From the NCBI GenBank assembly GCA_963709345.1, contig CAVPVX010000002.1, positions 224,001-288,000 of the forward strand: 64,000 bases of DNA, read 5' to 3'. The position numbers were made by a program, and so were the translations under genes. Numbering within the stretch: position 1 is the first letter of the stretch; every line of letters begins with the position of its first letter. Source of the DNA: an uncultured Actinomycetes bacterium. GTDB lineage: Bacteria; Actinomycetota; Thermoleophilia; UBA2241. The notes beneath the pieces are model-generated. The model saw only the letters and a program-made list of their open reading frames with translations, was not told where the DNA came from and did no database searches. Below are positions 3,269-7,664 of the stretch, one piece after another.

Positions 3269-3775
3269 TCAGCCCACCGGAGGCGCTCCGATGGCCTTCA
3301 GCGCCTTGCGCGCCTCCGCGGCGACGTGAGCGTCAGGGTCGCCGAGCGCACGCCGCAGCGTGTCGGCGGCCGCCGGGTCGCCGATGCCGCCGAGGGCCTG
3401 GACGCAGAGCAGTCGCAGCAACGCATCGGGGTTGTGCATGGCGACGCACAGCGGCTTGACGGCGACAGGGTCACCCATCTTGCCGAGAACGTAGGCGGCG
3501 TCCTGGCGACGATGAAGGTGTCCTTCCTTGAGAACGAAGATCAGACGATCGCGAGCCGGCGGCCCGATGAGGATGAGCGCCTCGCGCGACGTGTTGAGTT
3601 GGACCATGTTCTTGGTCTGCAGGCGCTGGATGATCTTGTCCAGATAGCTCTCAAGAGACTGGAGCGCAGCCTCGCGAATGGCAGGGTCCTTCTTGTACTT
3701 GGCGGCGCGCACGAGGCCGTCGATCTTGCCGGCGGCGTCGAGCTTGGCCACGTTCGGTGGGCCGAACAACCCCAC
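3269..3775 (-). CDS. HEAT/PBS-lyase repeat protein
   Basis: GTG 3775 with GGAG RBS; repeated units RQDAAYVLGKMGDPVAVKPL and VQALGGIGDPAAADTL. Confidence 0.8.
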   Translation of the reverse strand: MGLFGPPNVAKLDAAGKIDGLVRAAKYKKDPAIREAALQSLESYLDKIIQRLQTKNMVQLNTSREALILIGPPARDRLIFVLKEGHLHRRQDAAYVLGKMGDPVAVKPLCVAMHNPDALLRLLCVQALGGIGDPAAADTLRRALGDPDAHVAAEARKALKAIGAPPVG

Positions 3776-3847
3776 GTGCGTCTCCTTTTTCACGGACCGG
3801 CGCCGCGACGGCACCCGAGGTGACAGTCTACCTCAGCCGGGCGTGGC

Positions 3848-4786
3848 CTACCGCAGGATCCGGTTGGCCACATCCAGGAGTCGTGCCGGGAGATCGCGGT
3901 AGGTCCGCACCGGGAAGACGTCGCCGTGCCCCGCATCGGCGAGCCGCCGGCACAGCCCCGGGTTCATCTTGTAGTCCTCGGTGAGCAGGACGAACAGCTT
4001 CGGGAAGCGATGGGCGAGCGGCAGCGGGTCGCCGCCGGCCGTGACGACGCCGTCGCTGATGAGCAGGCCGCTGCGCCGCGGGCTGCGGCCGCGCTCCAGT
4101 TCTGCTGCGCCGAGTTCCAGCGCGGCCGCGATGTTCGTGTAGCCGCGCACCGGCTGGTCGAGCATGCGTCGCACGACCTCCGTCGCGGGGTCGGGCACGT
4201 CGAGATGCGTCACGGCCGTCGCCTTGTCTTCGAACACGACCACCGACAGGTCCTCGGGGTGCAGCTTGAGCGCCAAGACCGCCGCGGCGACCGCGGCGAT
4301 GGCCATGTTCTCCCCCGACATGCTCAGCGACGTGTCGACCATGAGCACGACCTGGTGGCGGCGGTCGACCCGCCGCCGGACCACCCAGTCGCCCGGCTCC
4401 GGGTACGGCTTTCCGAGCAGGTTGTCGACCGTCGCCTCGACGTCGAGTTCGCCGGCGTACGGCTCGCGCAGCGGCTCGCGAATCGTGTGCGTGGCGCCCT
4501 TCAGCGGACCGACGAGGCGGGTGGCGCGCTGCAGCACAGCCCGCGCCGCCAGCCGCTCGGCGTAGAAGCGCAGGCCCGGGTCGCCGATGCGACAGCCGCT
4601 ACGCGTCAGGTTGATGGCGATCGTCCAGCCGTCGAGGTCGGGTACGTCGACGCGATAGCGATCGGCGAGCGCCGCGAGCGGTGCGTCGCCCGGAGGCGGC
4701 TCCGGCGCGCACGCCGGCAGCCCCCGGACCTCGACGCGCCCCTGGTGCCGCAGGCGCGCCCCGGAGAGGGCGCTCAGGCTTTTGGG
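3848..4786 (-). CDS. VWA (MIDAS) domain coding frame, -1 relative to the upstream AAA ORF; likely the C-terminal half of a ~618-aa frameshift fusion
   Basis: MIDAS VDTSLSM, GYTNIAAAL, LISDG. The frame is open and resembles the fused paralog upstream of its first start codon (GTG 4537), e.g. LADRYRVDVPDLDGW vs LADHLRLPVEELDGW. Confidence 0.8.
   Translation of the reverse strand, partial: PKSLSALSGARLRHQGRVEVRGLPACAPEPPPGDAPLAALADRYRVDVPDLDGWTIAINLTRSGCRIGDPGLRFYAERLAARAVLQRATRLVGPLKGATHTIREPLREPYAGELDVEATVDNLLGKPYPEPGDWVVRRRVDRRHQVVLMVDTSLSMSGENMAIAAVAAAVLALKLHPEDLSVVVFEDKATAVTHLDVPDPATEVVRRMLDQPVRGYTNIAAALELGAAELERGRSPRRSGLLISDGVVTAGGDPLPLAHRFPKLFVLLTEDYKMNPGLCRRLADAGHGDVFPVRTYRDLPARLLDVANRILR
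4308..4537. repeat. 230-bp direct repeat, copy 1
   Basis: Identical by eye to 6277-6506 (ttctcccccgac...gctgcagcac). Confidence 0.9.
4756..4786 (-). other. Candidate programmed -1 ribosomal frameshift cassette
   Basis: Minus strand: C CCA AAA (4786-4780, X XXY YYZ in the AAA frame), spacer GCCTGA containing the stop, hairpin GCGCCCT-CTCC-GGGGCGC (4773-4756). Confidence 0.65.
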
Positions 4787-5703
4787 GAGCCCGCGTCCGG
4801 CGCCAGCGCCACGTCCGGGTCTTCACCTCGCTCCAGAACCAGATCGAGGAGCTCGTCGAGGGCGGTGCCGAAGTCGGCGTCGATGTCGTCGCGCAGATCC
4901 ACGCGCGTCGTCAGAGCGGCTTCAGCCGCGCGGCGCAGCGTCTCGCGGCTCACCGGTCCGCAGGCGTCACGGTTCTCGGCCGAGAGCCGCTCGGCGATCG
5001 CCACCGTGGCGATGGCGCCCCGGACGGAGGCGCCTTTGCGAAAGCGCGGGTGCAGCCGCGTCGCCCGCGTGAGACGCACCGCGGTCTGCACCAGCGCCGC
5101 GTCACTCGAGCCCGTCTCGGCGACCACGATCGCCTGCTCCTCTTCGGCGCCCTGGTAGAGCAGGGCGAGGTGCTCGAAGCGATCGCGCAGCGCCTCCGAG
5201 AGGTGGCCGGTGGCGACGTACTCGACCGGGTTCTGCGTCGCCACCACCTGGAAGCCGTCGGCGGCACGCACCTCGCCGATGTGCGGCACCTGGACGAGGT
5301 GCTCGTCGAGCGCCGGCAACAGCACGTTCTGCACGGATTCGGGCATGCGGTTGAGCTCGTTGATGAAGAGCACGCGGCCGTCGCGCATCGCCTCGACCAA
5401 GGGGCCGGCGAAGAACGAGTCCTCACCGTACCCCTGCTTGAGCACCAGCGGTGGGTCGAACCAGCCGGTGAGCTTGCTCTCCGAATAGCGGTCGTCCCCG
5501 TCGACGCGCACCGTCTCGCGGCCGAGGTGGCTGCAGACGGCCAGAGCGACGGTCGTCTTGCCGACGCCCACTGGCCCCTCGAGCAGAAGGTGTCTGCCGG
5601 TCCCGAGCACGGCAAGGGCCGTCGCCAGTTCGCTCTCGCGCCCGACGATGCCGTGCTGCCGCTGGATGCTCTCGATGGGGGTCACGCGCTCCTCCTCGTC
5701 CAC
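4774..5703 (-). CDS. MoxR-like AAA+ ATPase
   Basis: HLLLEGPVGVGKT (Walker A), LFINELNR (atypical Walker B), VVATQNP, LSEALRDRF, ASVRG. Confidence 0.9.
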   Translation of the reverse strand: MDEEERVTPIESIQRQHGIVGRESELATALAVLGTGRHLLLEGPVGVGKTTVALAVCSHLGRETVRVDGDDRYSESKLTGWFDPPLVLKQGYGEDSFFAGPLVEAMRDGRVLFINELNRMPESVQNVLLPALDEHLVQVPHIGEVRAADGFQVVATQNPVEYVATGHLSEALRDRFEHLALLYQGAEEEQAIVVAETGSSDAALVQTAVRLTRATRLHPRFRKGASVRGAIATVAIAERLSAENRDACGPVSRETLRRAAEAALTTRVDLRDDIDADFGTALDELLDLVLERGEDPDVALAPDAGSPKA

Positions 5704-5789: not shown

Positions 5790-7664
5790 CTACCGCAAGA
5801 CCGCGTCGGCCACCTCGAGCATACGTCGCGGCAGCGCGGCAAAGCCGCTCACCCGCACCACCCCCCCGTCGCTCGCCCGCGCGACGGCCTCCCCGACCGC
5901 ACGTCGCGGCGAGATCCACACGCCTTCTCCGCTCGAGAGAGGCTCGTCCACGAGCAGGACGTGCAGCGCCCCGAACGACGCCGCCGCGGCACGGGGATCG
6001 GGACCGACCGTGTACACGCAGTCACTGACGAGCAGGCCGCTGCGACGCGGATCGCGGCCACGCCGCAACTCGGCGTGGCCGCGCTCGAGCGCGGCGGCGA
6101 TATGCGTCCCGCCACCGCACGGCGACGACAGCATGCGCCGCACGAATTCCGTGGGCGCCACGGACTCCCCGAAGCGGGAGATCGTACGCGCCTCGCCGGC
6201 GAAGAGCACGACGGAGAGATCGCCCGCATGCAGCTTGAGCGCCAGCACGGTCGCCGCCACCGTCGCCAGCGCCATCTTCTCCCCCGACATGCTCAGCGAC
6301 GTGTCGACCATGAGCACGACCTGGTGGCGGCGGTCGACCCGCCGCCGGACCACCCAGTCGCCCGGCTCCGGGTACGGCTTTCCGAGCAGGTTGTCGACCG
6401 TCGCCTCGACGTCGAGTTCGCCGGCGTACGGCTCGCGCAGCGGCTCGCGAATCGTGTGCGTGGCGCCCTTCAGCGGACCGACGAGGCGGGTGGCGCGCTG
6501 CAGCACGGCTCCGGCCGCGAGACGCTGGGCGCAGGCTTCCACGCGTGCGCCGGCCCCGCTCACCTCGCCGGCGCTGAGGGCGCCGGCCAGCCACCAGCCG
6601 TCGAGCTCTTCCACCGGCAGGCGCAGATGATCGGCCAGAGATCGCCGGTCGTCCAGCGCGTACGCGGGGGCGGCGTCGGCGGTCGTCGACCTGGATGCGG
6701 GCACTGGCGGCGCCCCCTGCGCCTCCCGGCGTACCTCCGCTCCTCCGTCCCGGCCCTCCGGGGGGGCGGCAGCCACGACGGCGTCCGGGTCTTCGCCGCG
6801 GTCGACGACCTTCGCCAGGACGTCGTCGAGCACGCCGGCGACGTCGAGGACGGCGCCGTCACGCACCTCGACGCGAGTCGTGAGGGCGGTGTGGACCGCG
6901 CGGCGCAGCATCTCGCGGCCGGTCCCGGCCTTGACGCGCTCCCCCTCGAGCCTCTCGGCGACGGCCACGGTGGCCGACGCGCCGCGCACCGAGGCTCCGC
7001 TATGAAGTTCGGGGTGCACACGCGTCGCCCGCGTGAGCCGCACGGCCGTGCGCACGAGCGCCGCGTTCGCGGAGCCGGTGTCCGCAGCCACGATGGCCGC
7101 CTCCTCGCCGGCGCTCTGATAGCCGAGGGCGAGGTGCTCGAAGCGGTCACGAAGCGCCTCCGAGAGCCCCCCTGTGGCCACGCGCTCCCCGGGATTCGCC
7201 GTCGCCACCACGAGAAAGCCCTGCGCAGCCCGCACATCGCCAAGACCCGGGACCTGTACCAGGCCCTCGTCGAGCGCGGGCAGGAGCACGTTCTGCACCG
7301 GCTCGGGCATGCGGTCGAGATCGTTGACGAGCAGAACGCCTCCGCTGCGCATCGCAGCCACCAGAGGGCCGGGCGAGAAGGAGTGCTCCCCGTAGCCGCG
7401 CACGAGCACGAGCGGCGGCTCGAACCAGCCGACGAGCCTGCTCACGGAGTAGCCGCCGTCGCCGTCGACGCGCAGCGTCGCGCGACCGAGGCCGTCGCAG
7501 ACGGCCAGCGCCACCGTCGTCTTGCCCACGCCGACCGGACCCTCGAGGAGCAGATGCCGCTCCCCGGCCAGAACCGCGCGGGCGATCGCAAGCTCCCTGT
7601 TACGCCCCACGATCACGCGCGGCGGCGGGACGGCCGCTCCCGCGCTCAGAACGTCGGCGTTCAC
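5790..7664 (-). CDS. MoxR-like AAA+ ATPase fused in frame to a VWA domain (624 aa)
   Basis: GPVGVGKT, LLVNDLDR, ATANP, LSEALRDRF; C-term VDTSLSM, GGTHIAAAL, LVSD. Confidence 0.88.
   Translation of the reverse strand: MNADVLSAGAAVPPPRVIVGRNRELAIARAVLAGERHLLLEGPVGVGKTTVALAVCDGLGRATLRVDGDGGYSVSRLVGWFEPPLVLVRGYGEHSFSPGPLVAAMRSGGVLLVNDLDRMPEPVQNVLLPALDEGLVQVPGLGDVRAAQGFLVVATANPGERVATGGLSEALRDRFEHLALGYQSAGEEAAIVAADTGSANAALVRTAVRLTRATRVHPELHSGASVRGASATVAVAERLEGERVKAGTGREMLRRAVHTALTTRVEVRDGAVLDVAGVLDDVLAKVVDRGEDPDAVVAAAPPEGRDGGAEVRREAQGAPPVPASRSTTADAAPAYALDDRRSLADHLRLPVEELDGWWLAGALSAGEVSGAGARVEACAQRLAAGAVLQRATRLVGPLKGATHTIREPLREPYAGELDVEATVDNLLGKPYPEPGDWVVRRRVDRRHQVVLMVDTSLSMSGEKMALATVAATVLALKLHAGDLSVVLFAGEARTISRFGESVAPTEFVRRMLSSPCGGGTHIAAALERGHAELRRGRDPRRSGLLVSDCVYTVGPDPRAAAASFGALHVLLVDEPLSSGEGVWISPRRAVGEAVARASDGGVVRVSGFAALPRRMLEVADAVLR
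6277..6506. repeat. 230-bp direct repeat, copy 2
   Basis: Identical by eye to 4308-4537. Confidence 0.9.

What the first reader, a model, noticed from the sequence alone, without database searches (positions are those of the whole stretch)
3848..5703. MoxR AAA+ and VWA frames linked by a canonical -1 programmed frameshift signal: one gene, two subunits
Seen: the AAA ORF ends TCC CCA AAA GCC TGA. The heptamer C CCA AAA (4786-4780) is an in-frame X XXY YYZ slippery site, followed by a 6-nt spacer and a GC hairpin GCGCCCT-CTCC-GGGGCGC. The -1 frame is open for about 80 codons with no ATG/GTG/TTG before 4537, yet part of that stretch aligns with the linker of the adjacent fused paralog (LADRYRVDVPDLDGW..ERLAARAVLQR vs LADHLRLPVEELDGW..QRLAAGAVLQR). 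A -1 shift gives 618 aa against 624 aa for the paralog. Known: E. coli copA shifts -1 at CCCAAAG, and some chlD chelatase genes (AAA+VWA) make short and long subunits by frameshifting. Inference: this gene makes mostly free AAA protomer plus a minority AAA-VWA fusion, setting hexamer-to-adaptor stoichiometry. I am not aware of this being described for MoxR-type systems. Caveat: other indels in the window may be assembly errors.
Basis: partly seen in the sequence, partly recalled or inferred. Interest (0 to 1): 0.85.

Follow-up and report, generated by a model that had tools for sequence, protein, structure and literature searches.

The report
Frameshift-joined ATPase and VWA gene
What looks like two neighbouring genes is very probably one gene in which some ribosomes slip back one base at a conserved slippery site, so the cell makes a short ATPase and a long ATPase-plus-adaptor protein; the trick is known from chlorophyll/B12 chelatase genes but is seen here in a different ATPase family across a whole bacterial phylum.

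Summary
On the minus strand an AAA+ ORF (5685/5703..4774) ends TCC CCA AAA GCC TGA. The VWA/MIDAS coding frame continues in the -1 frame from the heptamer C CCA AAA (4786-4780) to 3848, with no ATG/GTG/TTG before 4537.

It is not an assembly error. Contigs from 4 runs of 4 studies bridge the site without a gap. In the organism's own family, 57 of 59 loci (58 genomes, 9 genera) keep heptamer + G + one codon (two in one locus) + stop, with the VWA part in the -1 frame. The heptamer is C CCA AAA in 46 loci and A AAA AAA in 11, although AAA and CCA are rare codons in these genes.

The same layout recurs across Actinomycetota: 69 of 80 more distant loci, mostly with G GGA AAA G, plus an A9 run in one related family. 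A stem of at least 5 bp starts 4-10 nt after the heptamer at 95 of 118 sites, against 21% of control positions. In-frame fusions exist in relatives.

Best reading: a programmed -1 ribosomal frameshift gives a 303-aa ATPase and a 612-aa ATPase-VWA protein. No product was observed, and the stoichiometry role is inferred.

The closest known case is frameshifted chlD. This protein is MoxR/NorQ/CbbQ-like, not ChlI/ChlD. Earlier notes of this scan report the same trick, with poly-A sites, on other genomes.

The parts
4774..5685 (-). Zero-frame ORF for the short product: a MoxR/NorQ-like AAA+ ATPase of 303 aa (309 aa if the GTG at 5703 is used)
   Evidence: ORF. Pfam AAA_5 2e-23, AAA_3 1.6e-14; nearest solved chains are midasin, NorQ, 2r44 and CbbQ. 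Orthologs align from residue 7 of the 309-aa ORF. GAGGAGG precedes GTG 5685.
4780..4786 (-). Slippery heptamer C CCA AAA in X XXY YYZ phase, always followed by G
   Evidence: sequence; present in 57 of 59 own-family loci, as CCCAAAA in 46 and AAAAAAA in 11; positions A3-A6 of the heptamer and the following G are invariant in 57 of 57; the 8-mer occurs only 3 times on both strands of the 3.11-Mb genome.
4774..4776 (-). Zero-frame stop TGA, one codon after the heptamer
   Evidence: the layout heptamer + GNN + stop (TGA, TAG or TAA) holds in 56 of 57 loci; L062 has two codons before the stop.
4756..4773 (-). Candidate stimulatory hairpin: 7-bp stem with one G-U pair and a 4-nt loop, starting 6 nt after the heptamer
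   Evidence: fold, not significant on its own; relatives carry hairpins of different sequence at the same spacing, with stems of at least 5 bp at 95 of 118 sites against 985 of 4720 control positions.
3848..4780 (-). -1 frame part of the long product (310 codons plus stop): about 100 aa of linker, then a VWA domain. Base 4780 is read twice.
   Evidence: frame open from 4822 to 3848. VWA_CoxE 2.2e-11, VWA_2 2.9e-09; tblastn homology in orthologs starts at residues 11-14 of the frame, at the heptamer.
4322..4336 (-). MIDAS motif D-T-S-L-S (DxSxS) of the VWA domain
   Evidence: residue 163 of the -1 frame. It is also present in the paralogs.
5790..7664 (-). Tandem paralog directly upstream: an in-frame AAA-VWA fusion of 624 aa
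   Evidence: Fused paralogs appear as single 612-626-aa alignments in 9 other genomes.
4308..4537 (-). 230-nt tract identical to the paralog (6277-6506 region), flanked by 52-73% identity: probably gene conversion
3269..3814 (-). HEAT-repeat protein gene directly downstream, a conserved neighbour in close relatives
   Evidence: HEAT_2 4.3e-16; tblastn finds it in 46 stored loci, all of the own family.

Best explanation
This is one recoded gene. Ribosomes translating the AAA+ ATPase frame reach C CCA AAA with tRNA-Pro on CCA in the P site and tRNA-Lys(UUU) on AAA in the A site. Most probably a GC-rich hairpin starting 6 nt further on holds them there. Ribosomes that stay in frame add one alanine, stop at TGA, and release a 303-aa MoxR/NorQ-like ATPase. 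Ribosomes that slip back one base re-pair on CCC and AAA and carry on in the -1 frame through a linker of about 100 aa into a VWA/MIDAS domain, giving a 612-aa ATPase-VWA protein. Shown by comparison: the signal and the frame relation are conserved and under selection across Actinomycetota. Inferred: both products are made, they co-assemble through their shared ATPase part into one ring, and the slip rate therefore fixes how many rings or protomers carry a tethered VWA adaptor. Frameshifted chlD and dnaX are thought to work the same way. The client of the machine is unknown.
For: (1) Own family. The -1 relation between the AAA and VWA frames holds in nearly all loci. 57 of 59 unique loci from 58 genomes in 9 genera carry heptamer + G + NN + stop, as do 3 further second copies.
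(2) Two different canonical heptamers occupy the same position: CCCAAAA in 46 loci and AAAAAAA in 11. This changes the peptide from S-P-K to R-K-K but keeps the site slippery.
(3) The codons used are rare. Outside the site, Lys AAA is 10 of 250 and Pro CCA is 19 of 688 in these ORFs. CCCAAAAG occurs 3 times in the 69.5%-GC genome.
(4) There is no conserved start. The first ATG/GTG/TTG in the -1 frame varies from +41 to +254 or lies far upstream. The -1 codon overlapping the stop is CTG in TGA loci but CTA or GTA in TAG/TAA loci. In 19 more distant loci the -1 frame opens no more than 12 nt before the heptamer.
(5) Wider phylum. The A9 run GAT AAA AAA AAA G plus stop occurs in 4 loci of family f4 at about 35% identity, with the -1 peptide conserved from the run onward. 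Of 80 loci returned by the GTDB species-genome scan, 69 are of the -1 type. Of the 67 that were scored, 55 have G GGA AAA, 3 G GGG GGA, 2 A AAA AAA and 1 C CCA AAA.
(6) Structure. A 36-nt window after the site is among the most stable 5% of windows in the same gene in 32 of 57 loci, and the most stable 10% in 41 of 57. A perfect stem of at least 5 bp starts 4-10 nt after the heptamer at 95 of 118 sites, against 985 of 4720 control positions. For stems of at least 7 bp the figures are 35 of 118 against 182 of 4720. There are 44 distinct stem sequences, and the start offset is 6 nt in 66 sites.
(7) Natural in-frame fusions exist: the tandem paralog, ortholog L052, which sits inside a frameshift-type clade at 99% SH-aLRT, and loci L081-83, L088, L097, L101 and L108.
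(8) There is no indel. Contigs of 4 runs from 4 studies bridge 4774-4786 with 0 gaps.
(9) The genome has tRNA-Lys UUU and tRNA-Pro UGG.
Against: No protein or RNA evidence exists; no RNA run was found. The window's own hairpin is not more stable than shuffles (z = -0.63). RNAalifold gave no consensus for 28 own-family sequences. For 38 Acidimicrobiia-type sequences it gave an invariant GCCCC/GGGGC stem with 0 covarying pairs, so within those groups the conserved bases could also reflect a peptide constraint. Support for structure rests on different stems in different lineages and on my own positional control. 6 of the 67 scored distant -1 loci have none of the listed heptamers. The genomes are related, so the counts overstate independent support. 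Efficiency, and therefore which product is the majority, is unknown. The stoichiometry function is inference by analogy. The tree is the quick version (careful search unfinished), and one row, L164, was mislabelled as fused.
Confidence: 0.82

Rival explanations
1. These are two separate genes. The VWA protein is started independently by translational coupling or re-initiation at or near the ATPase stop, from a non-canonical start codon such as the CTG that overlaps the TGA. The heptamer is incidental.
For: Adjacent MoxR and VWA genes are the usual arrangement in related systems (NorQ/NorD, CbbQ/CbbO; from general knowledge). In TGA loci the -1 codon overlapping the stop is CTG, and in L015 it is GTG. 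Two distant loci, L072 and L087, have a start codon soon after the stop.
Against: No start codon is conserved: the overlapping codon is CTA or GTA in TAG/TAA loci, and the first ATG/GTG/TTG is scattered. -1 frame homology begins at the heptamer. The rare-codon heptamer is invariant, and it is replaced only by other X XXY YYZ heptamers. In Acidimicrobiia-type loci the stop lies 19-52 nt after the heptamer, yet the heptamer and hairpin are still kept. In-frame fusions occur in relatives.
Confidence: 0.08
2. The frame break is a sequencing or assembly error, or a recent inactivating mutation (a pseudogene), in what is really an in-frame fusion like the paralog.
For: The site contains short homopolymers (C4, A4). 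The genome is a metagenome-type assembly of 11 contigs. Other loci of the set do show extra frame breaks (L016, L020/L028, L045, L189). L124 has one A fewer.
Against: The same break at the same place occurs in 57 of 59 own-family loci and 69 of 80 distant loci from independent assemblies. 4 runs from 4 studies show no gap at the site. The stop codon lies exactly one codon after the heptamer, and both halves are conserved as protein.
Confidence: 0.02
3. The shift happens during transcription. RNA polymerase slips on the A run and makes a fraction of mRNAs with one extra A, which encode the fusion in frame.
For: Relatives carry A7 to A9 runs. Slippage on runs of 9 A is known for dnaX of Thermus (PMC3711429, passage).
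Against: The window and most loci have only four A's within C CCA AAA G or G GGA AAA G. That is far shorter than the runs reported to slip. These sites are in heptamer phase with a hairpin at ribosomal spacing.
Confidence: 0.04

Closest known systems
Frameshifted chlD (fs-chlD) 'magnesium/cobalt chelatase' genes (Antonov et al. 2013, PMC3711429, passages read; Kuznetsov et al. 2022, PMC9227772, abstract, introduction, table and passages read; Antonov 2020 MBE, not held, known only through these citations)
   Same: One gene has an AAA+ module, a linker and a VWA domain. A conserved -1 shift site sits at the end of the AAA+ module with a structure downstream. The short product is the ATPase alone and the long product is ATPase-VWA. 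Fused in-frame relatives exist. Some carriers lack the chelatase large subunit.
   Different: The protein family differs. TIGR02442 scores only 19-22 bits against a cut-off of 779, and a six-frame search of the genome gives no match at E <= 1e-5. The profile search of PDB ranks midasin, NorQ, MoxR 2r44 and CbbQ first, CobS lower, and no BchI/ChlI in the top 60. No CobN/ChlH is found in the genome. The validated chlD sites are A-rich runs of 7-11 A; this lineage mostly uses C CCA AAA G or G GGA AAA G in 70%-GC DNA.
dnaX tau/gamma of E. coli (-1 shift at A AAA AAG with a 3' hairpin; PMC3711429, passages)
   Same: A -1 frameshift at an X XXA AAN heptamer with a downstream hairpin produces two forms of an AAA+ subunit. 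The two forms share an N-terminus and enter one complex in a set ratio.
   Different: In dnaX the shifted product is the short one. Here the shifted product is the long one. The proteins are unrelated beyond the AAA+ fold.
MoxR-class AAA+ with VWA partner: NorQ/NorD, CbbQ/CbbO, and MoxR proteins such as PDB 2r44
   Same: The ATPase sequence is closest to these: NorQ 7e-13, 2r44 5e-09 and CbbQ 5e-09 with one sequence, and 9e-25, 3e-24 and 2e-19 with the profile. The partner is a VWA domain with a DxSxS MIDAS motif.
   Different: In those systems the two proteins are encoded by separate genes with their own starts (general knowledge, not tested here). Here they share one start and are split by recoding. 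Walker B reads I-N-E-L-N-R, with Asn where Asp is usual. The client is unknown.
copA / CopA(Z) of E. coli
   Same: A -1 frameshift on a C CCA AAN-type heptamer gives two products from one gene (review PMC5009743, passages; the copA heptamer itself is recalled, not seen in a call).
   Different: In copA the shift gives a short chaperone, and the full-length protein is the zero-frame product. The proteins are unrelated.

Membership tests
-1 programmed ribosomal frameshift cassette | X XXY YYZ heptamer in the zero-frame phase, inside the overlap of the two frames | tested here: met
   C CCA AAA at 4786-4780, 10 nt before the end of the zero-frame ORF. The -1 frame is open from 4822.
-1 programmed ribosomal frameshift cassette | Heptamer conserved in relatives beyond what the peptide and codon usage require | tested here: met
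   57 of 59 own-family loci; 61 of 67 scored distant -1 loci. Four heptamer types share one position. AAA is 10 of 250 Lys codons and CCA is 19 of 688 Pro codons elsewhere in these ORFs.
-1 programmed ribosomal frameshift cassette | Downstream RNA structure 5-9 nt after the heptamer | tested here: inconclusive
   Positional enrichment is 95 of 118 sites against 21% of controls, with 44 different stems. However, the window's own fold has z = -0.63, and two RNAalifold runs found no covarying pair.
-1 programmed ribosomal frameshift cassette | -1 frame encodes the continuation of a protein that is one chain in relatives | tested here: met
   The in-frame paralog, L052, and seven fused distant loci.
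-1 programmed ribosomal frameshift cassette | Trans-frame product observed | not testable with these tools
   No RNA run was listed, and no proteomics tool is available.
fs-chlD / ChlD-BchD-CobT chelatase medium subunit | Matches the chelatase subunit models (TIGR02442; ChlI-type Mg_chelatase domain over its length) | tested here: not met
   TIGR02442 scores 19.4 and 22 bits against a cut-off of 779.45. PF01078 matches only residues 25-59, the P-loop. The genome-wide search gives no match at E <= 1e-5, while 13 of 14 control genomes match.
fs-chlD / ChlD-BchD-CobT chelatase medium subunit | Partner large subunit CobN/ChlH in the genome | tested here: not met
   PF02514 was not found in G000 (98% complete), while 5 of 14 control genomes match. 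Kuznetsov 2022 reports some fs-chlD carriers that also lack it.
fs-chlD / ChlD-BchD-CobT chelatase medium subunit | AAA+ - linker - VWA architecture, with the shift site at the end of the AAA+ module | tested here: met
MoxR / CbbQ-NorQ-GvpN class AAA+ (Pfam AAA_5/AAA_3) with VWA partner | AAA_5 or AAA_3 above the Pfam cut-off, with the nearest solved relatives in this class | tested here: met
   AAA_5 83.4 bits (cut-off 22) and AAA_3 54.3 bits (cut-off 27). NorQ, 2r44, CbbQ and midasin lead both PDB searches. NCBIfam GvpN and MadB score far below their cut-offs, so the protein is a member of neither.
MoxR / CbbQ-NorQ-GvpN class AAA+ (Pfam AAA_5/AAA_3) with VWA partner | Intact nucleotide-binding motifs and a MIDAS motif in the VWA partner | tested here: met
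   Walker A is GPVGVGKT. Walker B region is LFINELNR, with the Glu kept and Asn in place of Asp; other lineages have LYIEELNR. ATQNP and DRF motifs are invariant or nearly so. MIDAS is DTSLS. The motif names come from general knowledge.
MoxR / CbbQ-NorQ-GvpN class AAA+ (Pfam AAA_5/AAA_3) with VWA partner | Known client or pathway | not testable with these tools
   The neighbours differ between lineages: a HEAT-repeat gene here, and two Zn-alcohol-dehydrogenase-like genes in an Ilumatobacteraceae locus.

The most novel reading that the evidence does not exclude
A programmed -1 frameshift may be the ancestral, phylum-wide way in which Actinomycetota build a MoxR-class AAA+ ring that carries a sub-stoichiometric, covalently tethered VWA/MIDAS adaptor. 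On this reading the slip rate, set by the heptamer type and the hairpin, is the device that fixes ring-to-adaptor stoichiometry. The repeated switches between frameshift and in-frame fusion would show lineages retuning that ratio. This would be the first recoding event described for the MoxR/NorQ/CbbQ class, and it would turn the chlD case into a general rule for AAA+-VWA machines.
Probability: 0.35. Interest if true: 0.7.

Novelty: new member of a known kind. Interest (0 to 1): 0.55.

Why it matters
If this is right, thousands of actinobacterial 'AAA family ATPase' and 'VWA domain protein' gene pairs are mis-annotated. The VWA ORF is either cut short to an internal start or left without one. 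MoxR-class remodellers insert metal centres and activate enzymes, but how many adaptors sit on each ATPase ring is generally unsettled. A gene that encodes the ratio in a slip site makes that question directly testable, by mutating the heptamer or the hairpin and reading out both assembly and function. It also adds a GC-adapted set of bacterial shift sites (C CCA AAA G, G GGA AAA G, G GGG GGA G, each with a hairpin 6 nt downstream). These could be used to train frameshift predictors, which are currently biased toward poly-A sites.

Tried and rejected
RNA evidence: the look-up of sequencing runs listed no RNA holder, so nothing can be said about expression. No run held half of the sampled words. 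Only contigs were laid, not raw reads.

RNAalifold: the run on 28 ungapped own-family sequences returned no structure, because stems of different length fall out of register. The run on 38 Acidimicrobiia-type sequences returned an invariant 5-bp stem with no covariation. I therefore replaced this approach with a positional hairpin count against control positions.

Literature: Antonov 2020 (MBE) is not held. Supplements are closed, so I could not check whether the GeneTack clusters or the Chelatase DB already include this family under the name chlD.

Degenerate-ATPase idea: I asked whether the fused paralog is a degenerate ATPase, as BchD is. Only the window's copy and one other have V-N-D-L-D-R; 8 others have the normal N-E-L-N-R. 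Rejected.

SD-like stimulator: a G-rich or GGAGG-like tract lies 4-9 nt upstream of the heptamer in many loci. I did not test it, and the spacing is shorter than in dnaX.

Script errors found and corrected: the classification called L164 and L180 'fused', but inspection shows both are frameshift type. L164 therefore carries a wrong label in the tree.

Tools not used: structure prediction and complex prediction. No claim here rests on a fold or on a docking result.
Full report
**1. What is in the window**

All of the following is on the minus strand. An ORF runs from GTG 5703 to TGA 4776-4774. The more likely start is GTG 5685: it follows GAGGAGG, and orthologs begin to align there. The ORF ends TCC CCA AAA GCC TGA. 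Pfam calls it AAA_5 (2e-23) and AAA_3 (1.6e-14).

The frame one base back is open from 4822 to 3848. Pfam calls it VWA_CoxE (2.2e-11) and VWA_2, and it has a D-T-S-L-S MIDAS motif at 4336-4322. Its first ATG/GTG/TTG is at 4537, 81 codons after the heptamer.

The heptamer C CCA AAA (4786-4780) is in X XXY YYZ phase. It is followed by G, one codon, the stop, and then a 7-bp hairpin at 4773-4756. A -1 slip would join 302 zero-frame codons to 310 codons of the -1 frame. That gives 612 aa (618 aa from the upstream GTG), against 303 aa for the unshifted product.

Directly upstream lies a tandem paralog (7664-5790) that encodes the same architecture as a single 624-aa chain.

**2. Is it an artefact?**

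No. Contigs from four public runs of four different studies bridge 4774-4786 with no gap relative to the window (records 4, 9, 10, 14). One of these could be the source sample.

The stronger argument is that the same break recurs in independent assemblies. I collected 59 unique loci from 58 genomes of the organism's own family, spanning nine genera. The ATPase is 65-96% identical to the window's across these loci, and the VWA part 54-96%. In nearly all of them the VWA homology lies in the -1 frame relative to the ATPase, and it begins at residues 11-14 of that frame, which is at the heptamer.

Of the 59 loci, 57 carry heptamer + G + NN + stop. The two exceptions are informative:
- L019 is an ATPase-only extra copy.
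- L052 is a natural in-frame fusion with no heptamer.

Three further second copies in other genomes also carry the motif. A few loci have additional frame breaks elsewhere (L016, L020/L028, L045, L189). These look like ordinary assembly errors or decay. They show what a non-conserved break looks like.

**3. Is the signal under selection?**

- *Two heptamers, one position.* The heptamer is C CCA AAA in 46 loci and A AAA AAA in 11, at the same position. The encoded peptide therefore changes while slipperiness is kept.
- *Invariant bases.* The four A's and the following G are invariant in 57 of 57 loci, while flanking positions vary.
- *Rare codons.* Elsewhere in the same ORFs, AAA is 10 of 250 lysine codons and CCA is 19 of 688 proline codons. 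The 8-mer occurs only 3 times on both strands of the 3.11-Mb, 69.5%-GC genome.
- *Fixed stop position.* The zero-frame stop (TGA, TAG or TAA) lies one codon after the heptamer in 56 of 57 loci.
- *No conserved start for the VWA frame.* The first canonical start lies anywhere from +41 to +254, or far upstream. The -1 codon that overlaps the stop is CTG where the stop is TGA, but CTA or GTA where the stop is TAG or TAA.

**4. Beyond the family**

*Family f4.* Homologs at about 35% identity in another family of the same class have GAT AAA AAA AAA G, followed shortly by a stop. The -1 frame opens inside the A run, and its peptide is conserved from the run onward, upstream of any ATG (4 loci).

*Phylum sample.* A search of 401 genomes found further homologs. 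Many have G GGA AAA G near the end of the ATPase ORF; seven are in-frame fusions.

*All GTDB species genomes.* A scan with an alignment of the ATPase returned 80 loci. All carry Actinomycetota titles: Ilumatobacteraceae, Acidimicrobiia, Microthrixaceae, Geodermatophilus, Pseudonocardia and others. My script classed them as follows:
- 67 as -1 type.
- 7 as 'other'. Six of these are loci that end too soon to judge. L124 has one A fewer at the site.
- 3 run off the locus.
- 1 as +1.
- 2 as fused. Inspection showed both of these (L164, L180) are in fact -1 type with G GGA AAA G.

The corrected total is 69 of 80. Among the 67 scored loci, 55 use G GGA AAA, 3 G GGG GGA, 2 A AAA AAA, 1 C CCA AAA, and 6 use none of these. 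In 19 loci the -1 frame opens no more than 12 nt before the heptamer. That pins the place where the frame change must happen.

**5. The hairpin**

On its own, the window's hairpin is unremarkable for such GC-rich RNA (z = -0.63).

Across loci, the 36 nt after the site rank among the most stable 5% of windows from the same gene in 32 of 57 loci, and among the most stable 10% in 41 of 57.

A stricter count asked for a perfect stem starting 4-10 nt after the heptamer:
- Stems of at least 5 bp: 95 of 118 sites, against 985 of 4720 random positions in the same loci.
- Stems of at least 7 bp: 35 of 118 sites, against 182 of 4720.
- 44 different stem sequences were seen.
- The stem starts at offset 6 in 66 sites.

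Different lineages have quite different stems, for example GCGCCCC/GGGGCGC, GGGACGC/GCGTCCC, CGGCCGCCGC/GCGGCGGCCG, and a 14-bp stem in L062.

Against this, RNAalifold found no consensus in one aligned set and an invariant, non-covarying 5-bp stem in another. I therefore rate the structure as likely but not proven.

**6. Mechanism**

The genome encodes tRNA-Lys(UUU) and tRNA-Pro(UGG). On C CCA AAA these tRNAs can re-pair one base back, on CCC and AAA. The lysine tRNA re-pairs perfectly. The same logic holds for G GGA AAA and A AAA AAA. [quoted passage not shown]

The most economical reading is a classical simultaneous-slippage -1 frameshift, aided by the hairpin. Transcriptional slippage is unlikely on four A's, though it may contribute in relatives with A7 to A9.

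What is shown is conservation. What is inferred is that both proteins are made, that they share a ring through their common ATPase part, and that the slip rate sets the share of protomers carrying a tethered VWA domain.

A quick maximum-likelihood tree of 61 ATPase sequences interleaves fused and frameshift forms. At least 4 changes are forced by well-supported branches, and L052 sits inside a frameshift clade at 99%. This fits the idea that the frameshift product and the fused protein are functionally equivalent. The tree's careful search did not finish, and one label (L164) was wrong.

**7. What family is it?**

By sequence, the ATPase is closest to midasin AAA domains, NorQ, the MoxR protein 2r44 and CbbQ. 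CobS ranks lower, and no BchI/ChlI appears among the best 60.

NCBIfam's cobaltochelatase model scores 19-22 bits against a cut-off of 779. The same model finds nothing in the whole genome at E <= 1e-5, and no CobN/ChlH is present. So this is a MoxR/NorQ/CbbQ-class ATPase with a CoxE-type VWA domain. It is not a ChlD.

The client is unknown. A HEAT-repeat gene follows it in close relatives, but the neighbours differ in other lineages.

**8. Comparison with what is known, and novelty**

The principle is published for 'magnesium chelatase'/chlD genes. There, an AAA+ protein and an AAA+-VWA protein come from one gene by a -1 shift at the domain boundary. Reporter efficiencies of 10-63% were measured on A7-A11 runs (PMC3711429, passages). 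The arrangement is distributed over many phyla, including carriers without any chelatase large subunit (PMC9227772).

I found no paper that links frameshifting with MoxR-class ATPases: searches gave listings only, none relevant. I could not read Antonov 2020 or any supplement, so the family may already be listed there under another name.

Earlier notes of this same scan report frameshift-joined MoxR-like ATPase and VWA genes, with poly-A sites, on other genomes. One of those loci shares 17 of 88 short words with this ATPase.

I therefore file this as a new member of a known kind. It is a well-supported, phylum-wide recoding site in a second AAA+-VWA family, with GC-adapted heptamers. It is interesting to recoding and AAA+ specialists but not a new principle.

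Noticed in passing
window 4308-4537 versus 6277-6506 (minus-strand genes): The frameshifted gene and its tandem fused paralog share a 230-nt tract of exact identity, flanked by 52-73% identity. It looks like recent gene conversion between the two VWA parts, or less likely an assembly collapse. The tract happens to start at the GTG at 4537.
   Followed up: partly
L072 (G257) and L087 (G533), at the ATPase stop: In two distant homologs the ATPase and VWA frames are the same frame, separated by a single TGA (...EPG-stop, then the frame stays open). This could be stop-codon readthrough, or two genes with a start shortly after the stop (GTG at +9 in L087, ATG at +60 in L072).
   Followed up: no
L071, L073, L074, L075 (family f4); L077: Relatives at about 35% identity use a run of nine A's (GAT AAA AAA AAA G) instead of the C CCA AAA heptamer. 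L077 has TAA followed by seven A's and a +1 frame relation, perhaps a length variant or an error in the run.
   Followed up: partly
L052 (G194): This is a natural in-frame fusion of the otherwise frameshifted ortholog, with no heptamer. It sits inside a clade whose other members (L051, L054) keep the frameshift.
   Followed up: partly
window 3269-3814 (minus strand): A HEAT-repeat protein (PBS-lyase-like repeats) is encoded directly downstream. The gene is kept there in the two closest genera. It is a possible client or partner of the ATPase-VWA machine.
   Followed up: partly
L133 65-2458 (Ilumatobacteraceae record): Two Zn-dependent alcohol-dehydrogenase-like genes lie directly upstream of the frameshifted ATPase gene on the same strand. 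The context differs from the window's, which hints at lineage-specific clients.
   Followed up: no
window 5790-7664; L192: In the fused paralog of this genome and of one other, the Walker B region reads V-N-D-L-D-R instead of the N-E-L-N-R found in 8 other paralogs. This copy may be a weakened ATPase.
   Followed up: partly
own-family loci, 4-9 nt upstream of the heptamer: Many loci carry a G-rich or GGAGG-like tract just upstream of the slippery site. It may be a Shine-Dalgarno-like stimulator or merely coding sequence.
   Followed up: no
L124: An Ilumatobacteraceae locus has GGGAAAG (three A's) where its relatives have GGGAAAAG. This changes the frame relation. It is probably an assembly error or a broken copy.
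   Followed up: no
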